Source: Thermofilaceae archaeon (lineage in GTDB: Archaea; Thermoproteota; Thermoprotei; Thermofilales; Thermofilaceae). From it: a DNA stretch of 64,000 nucleotides. Position 1 is the stretch's first letter; each line of letters starts with the position of its first letter. Below are positions 3,458 to 57,044 of this stretch, in pieces. Both the position numbers and the translations under genes were made by a program. The notes under the pieces are model-generated. The model had not been told where the DNA came from. It did not search any database and worked only from the letters and a program-made list of their open reading frames with translations. The stretch lies in the NCBI GenBank assembly GCA_026986905.1, contig JALSNQ010000006.1:23634-87633 (forward strand). Direction: 5' to 3'.

Positions 3458-5092
3458 ATGAACCCTCTAGCTCAATGGGCTAGCTACGCCGCCTCATGGG
3501 ACAGGTTACTATCAATGATAGGAATAGAAATTCACTGGATAATACTGCAATACGTACTAGGTTTCTCATTCATAGTATTCCTCTTACTACTAATACATTG
3601 GAAAACTGGAAACAAGCACTACTTCAAGTTGGCTAGAACCCTCACCAAGGCCGTAGGCCTAGTATTTGCAGTAGGTGCAGCCACGGGTACAGCCTCTGAG
3701 TTCGGGCTAGTACTGCTATGGCCCAACCTAACCGAGGCGGCTGGCCGCTACATATACTTCCCCCTATACGCGGAGATATTCGCATTTCTCATGGAGGTAG
3801 TATTCATCTACCTACTTGTTTTCGGATGGAGCAAGCTTTCTCCAAAGGCGAGGATAGCTGTGGCGCTGCTAGCTTTCGTAGGAGCCTGGTACTCGGCCTC
3901 CATGATTGTGAGCGTTAACAGCTACATGGTTGCACCCACGGGGATAGTGGCGGCCTACGACCCGCTAAGCGGGTGGAAATACAACCAGGGATACCCCAAG
4001 ATAATGCTAGTCGTACCCAGCAACATTGTCGCCGCCCTGAACGTGCCGAAGCTGCAGAGTCTCGGAATGGAGGTTGTCGGTAAAACAAGCGACGCCGTAA
4101 TAGTTTTAATGCCGTCAAAGATAGTGCAGAGACTCGCATGGGAAGCCTGGAATAACGTCTACGTAAAAGACAGCATATTAATGCTTGTTCTCAACGATGC
4201 CGCTAAAAACAACGCGGCGCTCCTCCATACACCTGTGAAAAACATTGTGGACACAATACTTGTAAAGACCGTAGAACACGTGGGGCCATACACAGTCACC
4301 TTTATGTCACCGGTCTACCCGGGGAGTATCCTCCATGCCCTGGGTGCGGCGTTAACAGTGTCCGGGTTCACACTTATCGGTGCATACGGCTTCAGGCTGT
4401 TAACCGCAAAAGACGAAAAATACAAGAAGTACGTGGAAGACGCCTTCAAATTTGCAGTATACTTCTCCCTAATAGTAATAATTCTCCAGGGCCTCGTCTT
4501 CGGCCACATAATGGGAGAGGAGATAGCCCACTATAATCCCGAGAAGCTTGCGGCGATGGAAGGCACGAGCAGCAAGATACTTAGTCTCTCCGCTCTCACA
4601 GGCTCAGAGAAGCTGATGCCTCTCATAATATACGGCAACCCGAACGCGAAGATGCCTATCTACGATCAGATACCTAAGAACTATTGCTACCTACAGCCAA
4701 GACCCGGCCTACAGGACTGCAGGCCGCCCCTCATCATCCACTACATCTATTATACCAAGATAGGGCTAGGAGTCCTTCTAGGCCTAGACACGCTCATTCT
4801 AGCCTTCCTGCTGATACGCGGCATGAGCATGCCGAAATGGCTGCTTGAATTAAACATCGCCTCGCCCATAGTGGCCCACATCGTAAGCTTCTTTGGATGG
4901 GCAACCAGGGAGATAGGTAGAAAGCCGTGGACAATATATGGTGTCATGACGGTAGACGTGGCTCATACGCCGAACCCCGCGCCACCCGCACTAGTGGCTA
5001 TAATCGCGCTTTACTTTATCGGGATAATCATTGCACTAGGCGTTGCTGTGTGGAAGCTGATTTACATTCCATCACTTAAGGAGGAGGTGTAA
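3458..5092 (+). CDS. cydA: cytochrome bd-type quinol oxidase subunit I (CydA family), atypical
   Basis: C-terminal signature GWATREIGRKPWTIYG matches the GWxxxExGRQPW type. KLAAMEG motif, N-terminal His (IEIHWII) and a His in ILHALGAAL are present. Multi-TM protein. Confidence 0.85.
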   Translation: MNPLAQWASYAASWDRLLSMIGIEIHWIILQYVLGFSFIVFLLLLIHWKTGNKHYFKLARTLTKAVGLVFAVGAATGTASEFGLVLLWPNLTEAAGRYIYFPLYAEIFAFLMEVVFIYLLVFGWSKLSPKARIAVALLAFVGAWYSASMIVSVNSYMVAPTGIVAAYDPLSGWKYNQGYPKIMLVVPSNIVAALNVPKLQSLGMEVVGKTSDAVIVLMPSKIVQRLAWEAWNNVYVKDSILMLVLNDAAKNNAALLHTPVKNIVDTILVKTVEHVGPYTVTFMSPVYPGSILHALGAALTVSGFTLIGAYGFRLLTAKDEKYKKYVEDAFKFAVYFSLIVIILQGLVFGHIMGEEIAHYNPEKLAAMEGTSSKILSLSALTGSEKLMPLIIYGNPNAKMPIYDQIPKNYCYLQPRPGLQDCRPPLIIHYIYYTKIGLGVLLGLDTLILAFLLIRGMSMPKWLLELNIASPIVAHIVSFFGWATREIGRKPWTIYGVMTVDVAHTPNPAPPALVAIIALYFIGIIIALGVAVWKLIYIPSLKEEV

Positions 5093-9925: not shown

Positions 9926-10537
9926 TTACCAATAAGGATAGCTACCCTTAGGTATCTGCTCACCCACGCGTCCCGCGATCTTTATGCTAGGCTTTATAGT
10001 GGGCTTACCAGGCTCCCACTGCGCAGGAGTTACCTCGTCGGGGTGTTCACGTATGTACTGGAGCGCTTTGATTTGCCTTAAGAGCTCGTTCACATTCCTA
10101 CCCATGTTAAGCGTCACTACCTCGTAGGCCTGTATAACGCCGTCGGGGTCTATTATAAAGCGGCCGCGGAAGGCGACGCCCTCATCCTCCTTGTAAACGC
10201 CGTATGCGCGGGCAACCTTCCCTGTGGGATCGGAGCCCATGAGGTGCTTAACGCGGCCCTTGAGTAGGGGCTCCTGCTCAACCCAGCCCTTGTGGTCGAA
10301 GACCGTGTCCGTGCTTATGCTAAGTACCTCGACTCCCAGTTTCTTCAGCTCGTCGTAAACGTTGTTCATTGCGGCCAGCTCAGTTGCGCATACGAACGTG
10401 AAGTCGGCGGGGTAGAAGCAGAGTACAAGCCACTTGCCCTTAAAGTCCTCTAGCTTAACCTTCTTTATCTCGCCGTTAGTTGGGTCATATGCGTCGATTT
10501 CGAACTCAGGCGCCTTTACGCCTGGCTGCAGGACCAT
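9926..10537 (-). CDS. peroxiredoxin (AhpC/TSA, 2-Cys type)
   Basis: Peroxidatic Cys motif FYPADFTFVCATE. 203 aa. Confidence 0.9.
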   Translation of the reverse strand: MVLQPGVKAPEFEIDAYDPTNGEIKKVKLEDFKGKWLVLCFYPADFTFVCATELAAMNNVYDELKKLGVEVLSISTDTVFDHKGWVEQEPLLKGRVKHLMGSDPTGKVARAYGVYKEDEGVAFRGRFIIDPDGVIQAYEVVTLNMGRNVNELLRQIKALQYIREHPDEVTPAQWEPGKPTIKPSIKIAGRVGEQIPKGSYPYW

Positions 10538-36698: not shown

Positions 36699-36806
36699 TG
36701 GTGCGGGGGCCGGGATTCGAACCCGGGCAGGCCATCGCCAGCGGAGCCTGAGTCCGCCCCCTTTGGCCAGGCTACCTGCCTTTTGACCTAGCTCGGGCAC
36801 CCCCGC
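36699..36806 (-). tRNA. tRNA-Leu(CAG) with a ~20-nt insertion (non-canonical intron) in the D arm, CCA encoded
   Basis: The acceptor GCGGGGG/CCCCCGC, anticodon arm GCGGA-CUCAGGC-UCCGC, long variable arm and T arm CCGGG-UUCGAAU-CCCGG are all intact. The D region holds two D-loop-like copies (GAGCUAGGUCAAAAGG and GUAGCCUGGCCAAAGGG). The gene is 108 nt against about 88 expected. Confidence 0.8.
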
Positions 36807-37935: not shown

Positions 37936-38985
37936 CTATATTATATTACATGCAGAGAGCTTTTCCTTTAGGAAGCTAACCCTGTCGTCGACTATGCTTT
38001 TCGTGTACTCGTCACTCACGCTTTCCTCTTCGACGGGCTTTATAGGAGACATGTCTCCCCCTAATATGGCCGCAAGCTCAAGCGCCCAGAGACGCGCCGC
38101 CTCTACGGGTACGTAGCCGCCCCCTCCAGTAACGACCACTTTAGCCCCCTTCTCGACGTAGCTGTGTAGGAGTAACGCTAGCCTCCAATACGAGTTATCA
38201 GTAAACCTCAGCCCCACCAAGGGGTCGCCTCTGTGGCCGTCGACGCCCCCTTGTAGCACTATATAACGGGGCCCATAGCTGTCGAGGAGGGGCGCCAGCA
38301 GTTCCTCGAGCACTTTTTCGAAGACGTCATCGCCGCTTGCAAGCGGTACGGGCACATTTACGTTGAGACACTTCCCCTCTCCCTCTCCTAGTTCATCGAT
38401 CCACCCGGTACCTGGGTAAAACCCGTAGCCATAGCCGTGGACGCTTATCTTTAATATGCTGTCCCGGTAGAGGATATCCTGCGTACCGTCCCCGTGGTGC
38501 GCGTCCACGTCTACCACAGCGGTTCTTCCACGCTTTGAGAGTATGCGTGCAGCCAGGGCGACGTCGTTGAAAACGCAGAAGCCGCCAGCGCTCCTCCTCC
38601 TAGCATGGTGGAAACCGCCCTGAGGGTTGAAACACACGGATCGGTTGTCGAGTTGCTCGGCGCAGTGCACGGTGCCGGATACCGCTAGTAGTGCGTCCTC
38701 GAATACCCCTGGATACGCTGGCGTGTCCCCATAGTCGAGCCACCCCCTCCCACTCTTCGACATTCTTTTTACGTAGTCTACGTATTCCCTATCATGTACA
38801 AGGTACAGTATCTCTTCGCTGTATACTTCCGGCTCGACGACCTCAAATCCGAGTCCAGAGAGTAGTGGAACATATTTCTCGACGAAAATCTCAACCCTCC
38901 TCGTCCACGCCCCCCTCAGCTGGGGCGGGGTGAACGCGATCTTCCTGTATTCGTCTCTATATGAGATGGCGCCCATACTCCTCAT
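37936..38985 (-). CDS. histone deacetylase-family (HDAC/AcuC/acetylpolyamine amidohydrolase) protein
   Basis: GGFHHA and DVDAHHGDGTQ active-site motifs. Confidence 0.85.
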   Translation of the reverse strand: MRSMGAISYRDEYRKIAFTPPQLRGAWTRRVEIFVEKYVPLLSGLGFEVVEPEVYSEEILYLVHDREYVDYVKRMSKSGRGWLDYGDTPAYPGVFEDALLAVSGTVHCAEQLDNRSVCFNPQGGFHHARRRSAGGFCVFNDVALAARILSKRGRTAVVDVDAHHGDGTQDILYRDSILKISVHGYGYGFYPGTGWIDELGEGEGKCLNVNVPVPLASGDDVFEKVLEELLAPLLDSYGPRYIVLQGGVDGHRGDPLVGLRFTDNSYWRLALLLHSYVEKGAKVVVTGGGGYVPVEAARLWALELAAILGGDMSPIKPVEEESVSDEYTKSIVDDRVSFLKEKLSACNII

Positions 38986-39036
38986 GCGGTAGAAATAACG
39001 TGTGAGAGGCTATAATCGCTAGCTCCTCGGCGTCAC

Positions 39037-39046
39037 TTATTAATAT
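39037..39046 (+). promoter_or_regulatory. TATA box for the tRNA-Cys 3'-half transcript
   Basis: TTATTAATAT lies 21-30 nt upstream of 39067. Confidence 0.45.
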
Positions 39047-39066
39047 GCATGGGCTAAGTCTCTACT

Positions 39067-39146
39067 GGGGCCGCGGCACGCCTACGCTGCAGTGGTGGGC
39101 GACAGCCACCCGCTTTGTCCGGGTTCGAGTCCCGGCCCCGGCTCCA
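39067..39146 (+). tRNA. tRNA-Cys(GCA) 3' part of a split gene: leader 39067-39085, exon (pos 31-37) 39086-39092, 15-nt cis intron 39093-39107, exon (pos 38-76 incl. CCA) 39108-39146
   Basis: A perfect 3' module is present: A-CCCGC-UUUGU-CCGGG-UUCGAGU-CCCGG-CCCCGGC-U73-CCA. GCUGCAG supplies G31 plus loop positions 32-37 with anticodon GCA. No acceptor 5' strand or D arm is present locally. The leader is complementary to the trailer at 57031-57044. Confidence 0.75.
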
Positions 39147-39258
39147 TTCTCTATCCGTGAAGCCGTGCCTCTGCGCGGGGTGCCATGTTTTCTTCCCGGG
39201 CCGTTCCCTACGGGAAAAGTTAAAAAGGCTGTGGGGAGGGTTACATATGGCGGTAGCC

Positions 39259-39374
39259 GGGCCCGTAGTCTAGTTGGAAGGATGCCCCCGGGGAGGAGGG
39301 GCCTTAAGCCGCCCTGACAGCCGCCAGGGTTAGAGCGGCGGTGGTCCCGGGTTCAAGTCCCGGCGGGCCCACCA
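39259..39374 (+). tRNA. tRNA-Val(GAC) with two introns (about 24 nt at the 26/27 junction, 39285-39308; 16 nt at canonical 37/38, 39320-39335), CCA encoded
   Basis: Exons give GGGCCCG UA GUCU AGUUGGAA GGAU G CCGCC CUGACAC GGCGG UGGUC CCGGG UUCAAGU CCCGG CGGGCCC A CCA. Anticodon-loop CUGAC pairs with intron GUUAG, as in a BHB. Confidence 0.8.
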
Positions 39375-55937: not shown

Positions 55938-56933
55938 ATGTTTAAAAAAGTTTCGGGCGACGAGGTCGAGGAGGACGAGACTCTAAGAGAAGCGCGGCTA
56001 TTGAAATCTCTAACCGAGGGTGAAATTCCCTTAACCTGCCCTCAGTGTGGCAGCAACAGGCTGATCTACGACCCCTCCCGGGGGGAGATAATTTGCGCTG
56101 ATTGTGGCTATGTTATCAGTGAACGGGAAATAGATAGGGGTCCTGAATGGCGCGCGTTTACTCCTGAAGAGAGGGAGAGGCGTAGCCGCGTAGGAGCCCC
56201 CATATCCAGGTTGACGCCCGACAGCATTAGCACGGACATAGACTGGAGGAGCAAGGACGCCTCGGGTAGAGAGATAAGCCTGAGGAAGAAGATTGAGATG
56301 CTTAGACTGCGGAAATGGCATGTTAGGGCAAGGGCTCAGAGCTCTATAGAGCGCAACCTTACCCAGGCGGCTATGGAGCTTGAACGGCTTGGTGCGCAGC
56401 TGGGGTTGCCTAGGGCGGTTCTGGATAGGGCGCTTGAAATATACAGGAAGGCGCTGGACAGTAGCCTCGTCAGGGGGAGGTCTATCGAATCAGTCATGGC
56501 CGCGGCTGTCTACGCCGCATGTAGGGAGATGAGGCTGCCGAGGACGCTTGACGAGATAGCAATGTATACCAGGGCTGGAAGAAAGGACGTTGCTAGGTGT
56601 TATAGGCTACTACTGAGGGAAGCCGCAATAAAGGTTCCTCTACCAAACGCGGCGGACTTTGTGCCGAGGATAGGGTCGATGCTCAAACTCTCAGGGCCTA
56701 CAATTAGGAAGGCTATAGAGATCATAGAGAGGGCTCGTGAGATGGGGCTTACTGCGGGTAAAGACCCTGCAGGGCTCGCCGCCGCGGCAATATATATCGC
56801 TGCGATGCTGAACGGTGAGATGCGTACCCAGAAAGAGGTTGCGAGGGCTGCCAGGGTTACAGAGGTTACTGTCAGAAACAGGTACAAGGAGCTTGTAAGG
56901 AAGCTTGGGATAAAGCTGCCTATAAAGAAGTAG
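55938..56933 (+). CDS. tfb: transcription initiation factor TFB
   Basis: Zinc ribbon CPQCGS..CADCG, B-reader region and two cyclin repeats. Confidence 0.95.
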
Positions 56934-56968
56934 ATGGGTGGCGGCAAAGGATAAAAGCGCCCGCGTCT

Positions 56969-56990
56969 CCAAAAAGAGGGGGCTTATAGC
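56969..56990 (+). promoter_or_regulatory. candidate promoter of the tRNA-Cys 5'-half gene
   Basis: The A-rich CCAAAAAGAG is centred about 28 nt upstream of 57002, and CTTATAGC about 16 nt upstream. Neither is a strong TATA box. Confidence 0.3.
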
Positions 56991-57001
56991 CCCCAGGAGG
57001 A

Positions 57002-57044
57002 GCCGGGGTGCCCGAGGGGTAAGGGGGCGGTGGCCGCGGCCCCG
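57002..57044 (+). tRNA. tRNA-Cys(GCA) 5' half of a split gene: exon (pos 1-30) 57002-57030 plus GC-rich trailer 57031-57044
   Basis: GCCGGGG UG CCCG AGGGGUA AGGG G GCGG supplies the acceptor 5' strand, a D arm with A14/G18G19/A21, and the first 4 nt of the anticodon stem. No downstream tRNA parts follow. The trailer GGCCGCGGCCCC pairs with leader 39067-39079. Confidence 0.75.

What the first reader, a model, noticed from the sequence alone, without database searches (positions are those of the whole stretch)
39037..39146. 3' locus of the split tRNA-Cys carries a leader, a 7-nt micro-exon and an additional canonical-position intron
Seen: the T arm, acceptor 3' strand, U73 and CCA are flawless, but I could not fold 39067-39146 as a cloverleaf on its own. 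It has no D arm, and the 5' end GGGGCCG does not pair with CCCCGGC. With the 5' half from 57002-57030 everything fits. G39086 becomes position 31 and pairs with C39109. CUGCAG (39087-39092) becomes positions 32-37 with anticodon GCA. 39093-39107 (UGGUGGGCGACAGCC) is a 15-nt intron at 37/38. Its relaxed BHB has C87-G105, U88-A104 and G89-C103, with bulges AG|U and CC|A. A39108 is position 38. The mature tRNA therefore needs one trans and one cis splicing event, and the exon between them is only 7 nt. A TATA box (TTATTAATAT, 39037-39046) sits at the right distance from the leader start.
Basis: partly seen in the sequence, partly recalled or inferred. Interest (0 to 1): 0.85.

Follow-up and report, generated by a model that had tools for sequence, protein, structure and literature searches.

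The report
Split tRNA-Cys gene with extra intron
An uncultured heat-loving archaeon (family Thermofilaceae) encodes its cysteine tRNA as two pieces 18 kb apart that must be joined as RNA, and the second piece also carries an ordinary intron; this is a new, evolutionarily conserved example of the rare "split tRNA" gene type.

Summary
Window 39067-39146 is not a tRNA on its own. Joined to 57002-57030, and with 39093-39107 removed, it gives a clean 75-nt tRNA-Cys(GCA) with U73 and CCA.

The 11-nt leader GGGGCCGCGGC has one exact reverse complement in the 64 kb. It sits 2 nt after the 5' exon. The two RNAs can form a bulge-helix-bulge (BHB) motif that places the cuts at 30/31.

The 15-nt intron is the canonical 37/38 intron found in most contiguous crenarchaeal tRNA-Cys genes.

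The same split gene occurs in at least four other species in two genus-level lineages. The leader core, promoter position, 5' exon and oligo-T terminators are conserved.

In one assembly that yielded both halves, G29-C41 has become A29-U41. A leader-trailer pair has changed from G-C to U-A. These are compensatory changes between separate loci.

Split tRNAs are known, including splits at 30/31. I found no report of a split tRNA-Cys, of one in Thermofilaceae, or of a two-piece split tRNA with an extra cis intron and a 7-nt internal exon. I rate it a new member of a known kind, of moderate interest. No RNA evidence exists, and no whole genome was checked for an intact copy.

The parts
39037..39046 (+). 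TATA box of the 3'-half transcription unit (TTATTAATAT). Its centre lies about 26 nt upstream of G39067.
   Evidence: Sequence. An A/T-rich box ends 20-25 nt upstream of the leader GGGG in all five species. Function is inferred, not shown.
39067..39085 (+). Leader of the 3' half. 39067-39077 (GGGGCCGCGGC) pairs with the trailer at 57033-57043. A39078 is unpaired. C39079 pairs with G57032. 39080-39083 (GCCU) pairs with positions 28-25 of the 5' exon and forms the central BHB helix. A39084 and C39085, with G39086, form the 3-nt bulge, cut before G39086.
   Evidence: The leader core is identical in L247, L256/L264, L267 and L251/L112.
39086..39092 (+). Exon 2, 7 nt (GCUGCAG), tRNA positions 31-37 with the anticodon GCA.
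   Evidence: It is invariant in all species.
39093..39107 (+). Cis intron, 15 nt, at the canonical 37/38 position, with a relaxed BHB. Positions 32-34 pair with 39105-39103, and C35 opposite A39102 is a mismatch. The bulges are AG|U and CC|A.
   Evidence: It is orthologous to the canonical introns of contiguous tRNA-Cys genes. Its sequence and length (15-17 nt) vary between species while most of the pairing is kept.
39108..39146 (+). Exon 3: positions 38-76, comprising the anticodon-stem 3' strand CCCGC, variable loop UUUGU, T arm, acceptor 3' strand CCCCGGC, U73 and encoded CCA.
39165..39195 (+). Hairpin followed by a T-run (TTTT at 39188-39191). Possible end of the 3'-half transcript.
   Evidence: T-runs follow CCA within about 5-45 nt in four of the five species; none was seen within the 40 nt examined in L267. 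Inferred.
56950..56957 (+). TATA-like box (GATAAAAG) of the 5'-half unit, 44 nt upstream of the mature 5' end and just after the TFB stop codon (56931-56933).
   Evidence: GGATAAATAG and GGATATATAG sit at the same place in L252/253 and L254/255. Inferred.
56978..56994 (+). Conserved GC hairpin (GGGGGC-UUAUA-GCCCCC) in the predicted 5' leader of the 5' half. Role unknown.
   Evidence: The stem is largely kept and the loop varies in three further sequence types.
57002..57030 (+). Exon 1: tRNA positions 1-30 (position 17 absent). It holds the acceptor 5' strand GCCGGGG, U8, the D arm and G27 C28 G29 G30.
   Evidence: The same 5' exon, with A29, lies downstream of TFB in L252-L255.
57031..57043 (+). 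Trailer of the 5' half. U57031 is the third nucleotide of the 5' bulge G29 G30|U. G57032 pairs with C39079. 57033-57043 (GCCGCGGCCCC) pairs with the leader at 39077-39067.
57061..57065 (+). Oligo-T (TTTTT), the likely terminator of the 5'-half transcript.
   Evidence: A T5 run lies 9-17 nt after the trailer helix core in all four 5'-half sequence types. Inferred.

Best explanation
This is a trans-spliced (split) tRNA-Cys(GCA) gene. Everything below about transcription, cleavage, ligation and order is inferred from sequence.

**Two transcripts.** One, made downstream of the TFB gene, carries a short hairpin leader, tRNA positions 1-30 and a GC-rich trailer. The other, made 18 kb away on the same strand, carries a complementary GC-rich leader, positions 31-37, a 15-nt canonical intron, and positions 38-76 with CCA.

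**Annealing.** The two RNAs anneal through the 7-bp acceptor stem and the 11+1-bp leader-trailer helix. This forms a BHB motif with these parts:
- a central helix of positions 25-28 paired with GCCU of the leader;
- the bulges G29 G30|U and A C|G31.

**Cleavage and ligation.** The archaeal splicing endonuclease would cut at both bulges. An RtcB-type ligase would join G30 to G31.

**Second step.** The product is an ordinary intron-containing pre-tRNA-Cys like that of related archaea. Its canonical intron is then removed at 37/38.

**Order.** The two BHBs use overlapping nucleotides. Positions 27-28 are either in the trans central helix or in the anticodon stem. C32 and U33 are either in the trans outer helix or in the cis central helix. 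The two events must therefore be sequential, and the 7-nt exon need never be free. I think trans first is the most likely order.

**Origin.** The split is old. It is shared by two genus-level lineages.
For: - **Complete tRNA only when joined.** The joined product is called tRNA-Cys(gca) at 75 nt. It has a perfect 7-bp acceptor stem, a 5-bp anticodon stem, U73 and CCA. Neither half alone gives a tRNA.
- **Unique complement.** The leader has one exact complement in the window, and it abuts the 5' exon.
- **BHB geometry.** A 4-bp central helix and two 3-nt bulges put the cuts at 30/31.
- **Homologous 3' halves.** They occur in L247/248, L256-259, L264/265, L267 and L251/L112. All have the identical 11-nt leader core, although the genomes are only about 67-71% identical in DNA and range from 40 to 59% GC. 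The intron and flanks have diverged.
- **Homologous 5' halves.** They lie downstream of TFB in L252-L255.
- **Compensatory changes.** Assembly GCA_053991295.1 yielded both halves (L252 and L267). G29-C41 is replaced by A29-U41, and the leader-trailer pair G57032-C39079 by U-A. All other 5' halves of the genus have A29 and all other 3' halves have U41.
- **Promoters and terminators.** TATA boxes and oligo-T runs sit at conserved positions for both halves.
- **Ancestral intron.** The cis intron matches the canonical intron of about 118 contiguous tRNA-Cys genes. Intron-less genes read CTGCAGACCCG.
- **Ancestral locus.** In Infirmifilum (L014) and Thermofilum (L012) a contiguous tRNA-Cys lies next to dnaG, where the 3' half still lies in L251.
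- **Housekeeping genes between the halves.** They include Kae1-Bud32, a radical SAM protein, the thermosome and TFB, plus ribosomal proteins annotated in the syntenic relatives. No integrase appears in those annotations.
[quoted passage not shown] Closely spaced introns that must be removed one after the other are also known (PMC8450103).
Against: - There are no RNA data: no transcripts, ends, junction reads or excised intron.
- No complete genome was scanned, so an intact tRNA-Cys elsewhere is not excluded. None occurs in the 64-kb window or in 116 kb of related loci.
- The MFE cofold prefers a continuous helix in another register to the BHB. This is usual for BHB motifs but gives no support.
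- In the sister species the trans central helix has only 3 pairs plus a C28/A mismatch. The cis central helix has one mismatch in three of the five species.
- The 5' half of the L112/L251 lineage was not found.
- The pairing of halves in GCA_053991295.1 rests on metagenomic binning, because the halves are on two contigs.
- The endonuclease type of these organisms was not checked.
Confidence: 0.87

Rival explanations
1. The two loci are dead tRNA fragments, such as att-site duplications left by integrating elements or debris from rearrangement. They are not transcribed or joined, and a normal tRNA-Cys gene lies elsewhere in the genome.
For: tRNA genes are common integration and recombination sites (PMC3218864). 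No whole genome was scanned. There is no RNA evidence.
Against: - Fragments would not keep an 11-nt non-tRNA leader and its complement identical across genomes that are only ~67-71% identical in DNA and span 40-59% GC.
- They would not keep TATA boxes and T-runs in place.
- They would not show compensatory changes between loci.
- Integration leaves an intact gene plus a duplicate. Here neither locus is intact.
- The order on the strand is 3' half then 5' half, and the genes between are housekeeping genes (syntenic relatives).
Confidence: 0.04
2. The split gene is real and expressed but redundant. A contiguous tRNA-Cys also exists in these genomes, so the split copy is a dispensable second source.
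For: This cannot be excluded. Only the 64-kb window and about 116 kb of related loci were inspected.
Against: Archaea usually have one gene per anticodon (PMC4307357 abstract). The ancestral tRNA-Cys site next to dnaG holds only the 3' half in L251. Purifying selection with compensatory change argues that the gene is needed.
Confidence: 0.08
3. 39146 is the end of a contiguous gene with a very long intron whose 5' part lies just upstream. ARAGORN calls tRNA-Thr(cgt) at 38919-39146 with a 131-nt intron.
For: ARAGORN in intron mode reports it.
Against: The model has a U-G pair in the acceptor stem, a weak 4-bp D stem without the conserved D-loop residues, and a long unpaired extra arm. Its 5' part lies inside the histone deacetylase coding region on the other strand. 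It ignores the GCA loop and the leader, and nothing like it is conserved. The Rfam tRNA model does not score it.
Confidence: 0.01
4. The gene is split, but the processing sites differ. Either the cis intron is cut one nucleotide later, as ARAGORN draws it (38/39, giving U38), or the two pieces are joined at a position other than 30/31.
For: ARAGORN places the intron as ggtgggcgacagcca after GCAGT. Sequence alone cannot fix cleavage sites.
Against: The BHB rule (a cut 2 nt 3' of each central-helix strand) gives 37/38 and 30/31. Intron-less relatives read CUGCAGACCCG, that is A38. Only one G precedes C32 in the 3' locus, and GCGG ends the 5' exon just before the bulge nucleotide, so a 5-bp anticodon stem allows only 30/31.
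Confidence: 0.04

Closest known systems
Split tRNA-Lys(CUU) of Nanoarchaeum equitans and Staphylothermus marinus/hellenicus (Randau 2005; Chan, Cozen & Lowe 2011, PMC3218864)
   Same: Two separately transcribed halves. A GC-rich complementary trailer and leader. A BHB at the exon boundaries. The same ligation site, 30/31. Each half has its own promoter. The halves lie kilobases apart.
   Different: A different isoacceptor (Cys) and a different lineage (Thermofilaceae-like). The 3' half here also carries a canonical cis intron, so there are three exons. Table 1 of PMC3218864 lists no intron for any two-piece split tRNA. This split is shared by at least five species in two genus-level lineages, whereas the Desulfurococcales cases are described as recent and sporadic.
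Tri-split tRNA-Gly of Caldivirga maquilingensis (Fujishima 2009, as summarised in PMC4033280)
   Same: The mature tRNA is assembled from three exons by two BHB-dependent events.
   Different: There all three pieces are separate transcripts. Here exons 2 and 3 are contiguous, separated by a 15-nt intron with no room for a promoter. The middle exon is 7 nt.
Multi-intron tRNA genes of Thermoproteales and Thermofilum, and the permuted tRNA-iMet and tRNA-Tyr of Thermofilum pendens, which also carry a 37/38 intron (PMC3218864, PMC8450103)
   Same: The same family-level lineage. A non-canonical processing site is combined with the canonical intron. The sites are so close that one BHB must be resolved before the other can form.
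   Different: Those are single transcripts, either cis introns or a permuted junction at 59/60. Here the non-canonical site has become a trans junction between loci 18 kb apart.
Contiguous intron-containing tRNA-Cys(GCA) of other Thermoproteota (loci L002-L121)
   Same: The same acceptor stem, anticodon loop, T arm, U73 and encoded CCA. The same canonical intron position, with UGG as the first intron bases. In Thermofilum and Infirmifilum it occupies the same genomic neighbourhood, next to dnaG.
   Different: Those genes are in one piece. Some carry a second cis intron elsewhere, at about 22/23 in Infirmifilum (L014) and about 28/29 in Vulcanisaeta (L102). None seen has one at 30/31.

Membership tests
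Archaeal split (trans-spliced) tRNA | Two non-adjacent gene pieces that give a complete cloverleaf tRNA only when joined | tested here: met
   ARAGORN calls tRNA-Cys(gca) for the joined product and finds nothing in either half. The Rfam tRNA model hits neither half. The same holds for the sister-species pairs.
Archaeal split (trans-spliced) tRNA | GC-rich complementary sequences, a trailer after the 5' half and a leader before the 3' half | tested here: met
   11 bp plus 1 bp. It is the only exact complement in 64 kb. It is conserved in all species.
Archaeal split (trans-spliced) tRNA | A BHB, or relaxed BHB, at the leader/trailer-exon boundaries that puts the cuts at the junction | tested here: met
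   The central helix pairs positions 25-28 with GCCU (4 bp including one G-U). The bulges are GG|U and AC|G. Outer helices lie on both sides. This was drawn by hand; the MFE cofold does not return it. In sister species the central helix has 3 bp plus a C/A mismatch.
Archaeal split (trans-spliced) tRNA | An independent promoter for each half | tested here: met
   TATA boxes sit at conserved distances upstream of both halves in every species compared. This is sequence-level evidence only.
Archaeal split (trans-spliced) tRNA | Both half transcripts and the ligated mature tRNA are detectable | not testable with these tools
   No RNA data are available.
Archaeal split (trans-spliced) tRNA | No contiguous gene for the same anticodon in the genome | tested here: inconclusive
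   None occurs in the window or in 116 kb of related loci. No whole genome was scanned.
Archaeal split (trans-spliced) tRNA | The host encodes a broad-specificity splicing endonuclease, (alpha-beta)2 or epsilon2 | not tested
   Expected for Thermoproteota from the literature (PMC5829648, PMC4033280) but not looked for here.
Canonical archaeal tRNA intron | Located at 37/38 with a BHB or relaxed BHB formed with the anticodon loop | tested here: met
   C32-G, U33-A and G34-C pair; C35 opposite A is a mismatch. The bulges are AG|U and CC|A. It is orthologous to the introns of contiguous tRNA-Cys genes.
Tri-split tRNA | Three separately transcribed pieces | tested here: not met
   Exons 2 and 3 are separated by only 15 nt in one locus.
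Circularly permuted tRNA | The 3' part lies directly upstream of the 5' part in one transcript, which is processed through a circular intermediate | tested here: not met
   The order on the strand is 3' half then 5' half. However, they are 17.9 kb apart with genes on both strands between them. Each has its own TATA box and T-run. In GCA_053991295.1 they are on different contigs.
tRNA fragment left by an integrated element (att duplication) | An intact tRNA gene plus a duplicated part flanking an element that carries an integrase | tested here: not met
   Neither locus is intact. The genes between the halves are housekeeping genes and no integrase appears in the annotations of the syntenic relatives. 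The fragments co-vary.

The most novel reading that the evidence does not exclude
The split gene is the only source of tRNA-Cys in a whole clade of Thermofilaceae-like archaea (at least five species in two genera). It has been inherited stably since before those genera diverged. Its maturation requires an obligatory order of two mutually exclusive BHB conformations around a 7-nt exon. That would make it the first anciently fixed, multi-species split tRNA, in contrast to the 'recently split' Desulfurococcales cases. It would also be the first two-transcript, three-exon tRNA.
Probability: 0.55. Interest if true: 0.6.

Novelty: new member of a known kind. Interest (0 to 1): 0.5.

Why it matters
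- **A new case.** It adds a new isoacceptor (Cys) and a new lineage (Thermofilaceae-like archaea) to the short list of trans-spliced tRNAs. A 2014 review counted 29 split tRNA genes for 12 anticodons in seven genomes (PMC4033280).
- **Covariation between loci.** The split is shared by several diverged species. It therefore shows compensatory change between two unlinked loci and can be placed on a phylogeny. This bears on the question of whether split tRNAs arose early or late.
- **A test of splicing order.** A trans junction at 30/31 and a cis intron at 37/38 use overlapping nucleotides. This offers a natural substrate for asking in what order the splicing endonuclease resolves competing BHBs.
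- **Annotation.** In my runs ARAGORN and the Rfam tRNA model either missed this gene or, in ARAGORN's intron mode, mis-called it as tRNA-Thr. Genomes of this clade could therefore appear to lack tRNA-Cys.

Tried and rejected
- **Metagenome scan wasted.** The scan for 5' halves used GCCGGGGTN{18,28}GCCGCGGCCCC. The pattern was too loose.
- **TFB relatives without a 5' half.** P0032, P0049 and P0005 have no 5' half downstream of TFB. That insertion site is specific to the window's genus.
- **L112/L251 lineage.** Its 5' half was not found in 21 kb around dnaG. It is also absent next to TFB in L125, which comes from the same sample as L251.
- **P0128 lineage.** The contigs are too short and show nothing near dnaG.
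- **ARAGORN tRNA-Thr.** The call at 38919-39146 with a 131-nt intron was rejected as an artefact.
- **MFE cofolding.** It returns the acceptor stem and the leader-trailer helix but a different register at the junction. It was not used as evidence either way.
- **No 30/31 cis intron.** I looked for one in contiguous relatives as a direct precursor of the split. I found only introns at about 22/23 and about 28/29.
- **Literature.** Searches for a split tRNA-Cys or a split tRNA in Thermofilaceae found nothing. Fujishima 2009 (PMC2650326) is not held, so I could not check directly whether the C. maquilingensis split tRNAs lack cis introns.

Full report
**1. What is in the sequence**

The 3' locus reads as follows:
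- TATA-like box TTATTAATAT (39037-39046);
- leader GGGGCCGCGGCACGCCTAC (39067-39085);
- GCTGCAG (39086-39092);
- TGGTGGGCGACAGCC (39093-39107);
- ACCCGC TTTGT CCGGG TTCGAGT CCCGG CCCCGGC T CCA (39108-39146).

The 5' locus reads GCCGGGGTGCCCGAGGGGTAAGGGGGCGG (57002-57030), followed by TGGCCGCGGCCCC.

ARAGORN finds only tRNA-Gln in the window in its default mode. The Rfam gathering scan finds only that tRNA and a 5S rRNA. Permissive Rfam scans of each locus give no tRNA hit for either half. ARAGORN on each half alone finds nothing. On 57002-57030 + 39086-39092 + 39108-39146 it calls a 75-nt tRNA-Cys(gca). With the 15 nt left in, it calls tRNA-Cys with a 15-nt intron.

It is negative.

**2. More than chance**

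The exact 11-mer GGGGCCGCGGC occurs twice in the 64 kb, counting both strands. One copy is the leader. The other is its reverse complement at 57033-57043, two bases after the last base of the 5' exon.

The joined molecule has these features:
- a perfect 7-bp acceptor stem;
- a perfect 5-bp anticodon stem, with G27 C28 G29 G30 from one locus and G31 plus C39-C43 from the other;
- the loop CUGCAGA;
- U73, the discriminator base used by CysRS (established knowledge);
- an encoded CCA.

**3. Geometry of the two processing sites**

I drew these by hand using the archaeal BHB rule, which places each cut two nucleotides 3' of a central-helix strand. I tabulated the pairs.

*Trans site*
- The central helix is G25-U39083, G26-C39082, G27-C39081 and C28-G39080.
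- The 5' bulge is G29 G30 | U57031.
- The 3' bulge is A39084 C39085 | G39086.
- One outer helix is G57032-C39079, then an unpaired A39078, then 11 G-C pairs.
- The other outer helix is G24-C32 and G23-U33.
- The cuts fall after position 30 and before position 31.

*Cis site*
- The central helix is C32-G39105, U33-A39104 and G34-C39103, with C35 opposite A39102 as a mismatch.
- The bulges are A36 G37 | U and C C | A38.
- The anticodon stem serves as the outer helix.

Positions 27-28 and 32-33 are used differently in the two motifs, so they cannot both be formed at once. The tRNAscan-SE 2.0 paper describes the same situation for closely spaced cis introns (PMC8450103).

MFE cofolding reproduces the trans acceptor stem and the leader-trailer helix. 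It chooses a continuous helix at the junction instead of the BHB. This is not informative either way.

**4. The organism**

The proteins are archaeal. The window encodes TFB, a Kae1-Bud32 fusion and archaeal DnaG, among others. The nearest named TFBs are from Infirmifilum (86% identity) and Thermofilum (84%). A metagenome contig, L001, is 99.97% identical over 7 kb. The source is therefore an uncultured Thermofilaceae-like archaeon.

**5. Contiguous relatives**

I scanned one genome per species with the T-arm/acceptor pattern. About 118 hold a contiguous gene; all but one, a tRNA-Thr(UGU) in L023, are tRNA-Cys genes.

Most have an intron right after CTGCAG, typically beginning TGG and resuming at ACCCG. 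Intron-less genes read CTGCAGACCCG. So the 15-nt intron is the ordinary, ancestral tRNA-Cys intron, and A39108 is position 38.

In Infirmifilum (L014) and Thermofilum (L012) the contiguous gene lies beside dnaG.

**6. The same split gene in other species**

One genome hit, L112, is a Thermofilaceae MAG with 40% GC. It has only a 3' half, with the same leader core.

I used DnaG, TFB and a radical-SAM protein of the window to fetch syntenic contigs. This recovered the following 3' halves.

| Loci | Leader |
|---|---|
| L247/248 | GGGGCCGCGGCAACCCAG |
| L256-259 and L264/265 | GGGGCCGCGGCAACCCAC |
| L267 | GGGGCCGCGGCAACCCAG |
| L251 (the L112 species) | GGGGCCGCGGCTTGCCCAA |

It also recovered 5' halves downstream of TFB in L252/253 and L254/255. 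These read GCCGGGGTGCCCGAGGGGTAAGGGGGCAG | ATGCCGCGGCCCCC.

These genomes are about 71% identical to the window in DNA, and about 67% for L251. What is conserved and what varies is as follows:
- The 11-nt leader core is invariant.
- Exon 2 and the junction are invariant.
- The intron varies in sequence and in length (15-17 nt).
- A TATA box ends 20-25 nt before the leader GGGG in every species.
- A TATA box, a GC hairpin and a T5 run flank every 5' half.

All joined products are called tRNA-Cys by ARAGORN.

**7. Compensatory change between loci**

L252 (5' half) and L267 (3' half) come from the same assembly, GCA_053991295.1. There position 29 is A and position 41 is U, where the window has G and C. 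The leader-trailer pair next to the 5' bulge is U-A, where the window has G57032-C39079.

All other 5' halves of the genus have A29, and all other 3' halves have U41. Two loci that never lie on one transcript thus co-vary at a tRNA stem pair and at a pair outside the tRNA body. This is the strongest evidence available without RNA data that the halves pair and function together.

**8. Alternatives**

- **Integration remnant or dead fragments.** This does not fit the conservation, the covariation, the absence of an intact copy at either locus, or the housekeeping genes between the halves (syntenic relatives).
- **Permuted tRNA.** This is excluded by the 17.9-kb distance, the separate promoters and terminators, and the separate contigs in GCA_053991295.1.
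- **ARAGORN's tRNA-Thr.** The call at 38919-39146 with a 131-nt intron has a poor cloverleaf whose 5' part lies inside a coding region. It is an artefact.
- **A redundant intact tRNA-Cys elsewhere.** This cannot be excluded. None is in the window or in 116 kb of related loci.

**9. Mechanism**

All steps are inferred. Two primary transcripts anneal. The splicing endonuclease cuts the trans BHB, and an RtcB-type ligase joins G30 to G31. The product is the same intron-containing pre-tRNA-Cys that relatives make from one gene. The canonical intron is then removed. RNase P removes the hairpin leader, and the 3' trailer after CCA is trimmed.

I favour trans splicing first, because the cis BHB lacks its outer helix (the anticodon stem) until positions 27-30 are released from the trans motif. 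The reverse order is not excluded.

**10. Comparison with what is known**

Split tRNAs are known in N. equitans, C. maquilingensis, A. pernix, T. aggregans and Staphylothermus. The tRNA-Lys(CUU) split is also at 30/31 (PMC3218864; PMC4033280). Thermofilum pendens was known only for permuted tRNAs.

No paper in the searchable library mentions a split tRNA-Cys or a split tRNA in Thermofilaceae. Table 1 of PMC3218864 lists no cis intron in any two-piece split tRNA.

This is therefore a new member of a known kind. It has one architectural twist: two transcripts, three exons, and a 7-nt middle exon. It also has an unusual evolutionary depth, being shared by two genus-level lineages.

**11. Verdict**

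I put confidence in a functional trans-spliced tRNA-Cys at about 0.87. Interest is moderate, at 0.5. The case is clean, conserved and apparently unreported, and it is useful for questions of evolution and splicing order. The mechanism and the kind of gene are already established.

Noticed in passing
window 39259-39372 (+): The tRNA gene 113 nt downstream of the 3' half has two introns, one between the D arm and the anticodon stem and one canonical. Read by eye it is probably tRNA-Val(GAC). Rfam scores it 42 bits with a 51-nt insertion, and ARAGORN mis-calls it Ser. An intron-less tRNA-Val(gac) sits in the corresponding neighbourhood of L251 (c539-613).
   Followed up: partly
window 36699-36806 (-): tRNA-Leu(CAG) with a non-canonical intron, between dnaG and the 3' half. 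It is missed by default ARAGORN and by the Rfam gathering scan. 50 nt of it are 94-96% identical to loci L012, L028 and L060.
   Followed up: partly
window 56978-56994 (+); also L252-L255: A GC hairpin (GGGGGC-loop-GCCCCC) lies directly upstream of the 5' exon, at about the predicted transcription start. The stem is largely kept and the loop varies in four sequence types. Its role is unknown; it could be a 5'-leader structure for RNase P or a stabiliser.
   Followed up: partly
L035 (Desulfurococcales archaeon ex4484_217_1), minus strand around 254-276: Only the part of tRNA-Cys from position 38 onward is present. It is preceded by an intron-like ...CTCCGCCACTACAGGA. No 5' part occurs anywhere in the 8-kb locus. 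This may be an independent split at 37/38 or a very long intron.
   Followed up: no
L014 (Infirmifilum sp.) about 4260-4395; L102 (Vulcanisaeta sp. AZ3): These contiguous tRNA-Cys genes carry a second, non-canonical intron in addition to the canonical one, at about 22/23 and about 28/29 respectively. This shows that the 5' side of the anticodon arm of tRNA-Cys is intron-prone in this order.
   Followed up: partly
window 39067-39146: Folded alone, the 3' half pairs its leader GGGGCC with GGCUCC at its own 3' end, forming a pseudo-acceptor helix (RNAfold, -39.4 kcal/mol). This could compete with annealing to the 5' half or protect the free half.
   Followed up: no
L267 about 9990-10120 (-): The 3' half of GCA_053991295.1 has a variable region 2 nt longer (TTTACGC against TTTGT) and a TTCAAGT T loop. 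ARAGORN still calls the 77-nt joined product tRNA-Cys.
   Followed up: no
window 62541-62657 (+): A 5S rRNA gene (Rfam, 66 bits).
   Followed up: no
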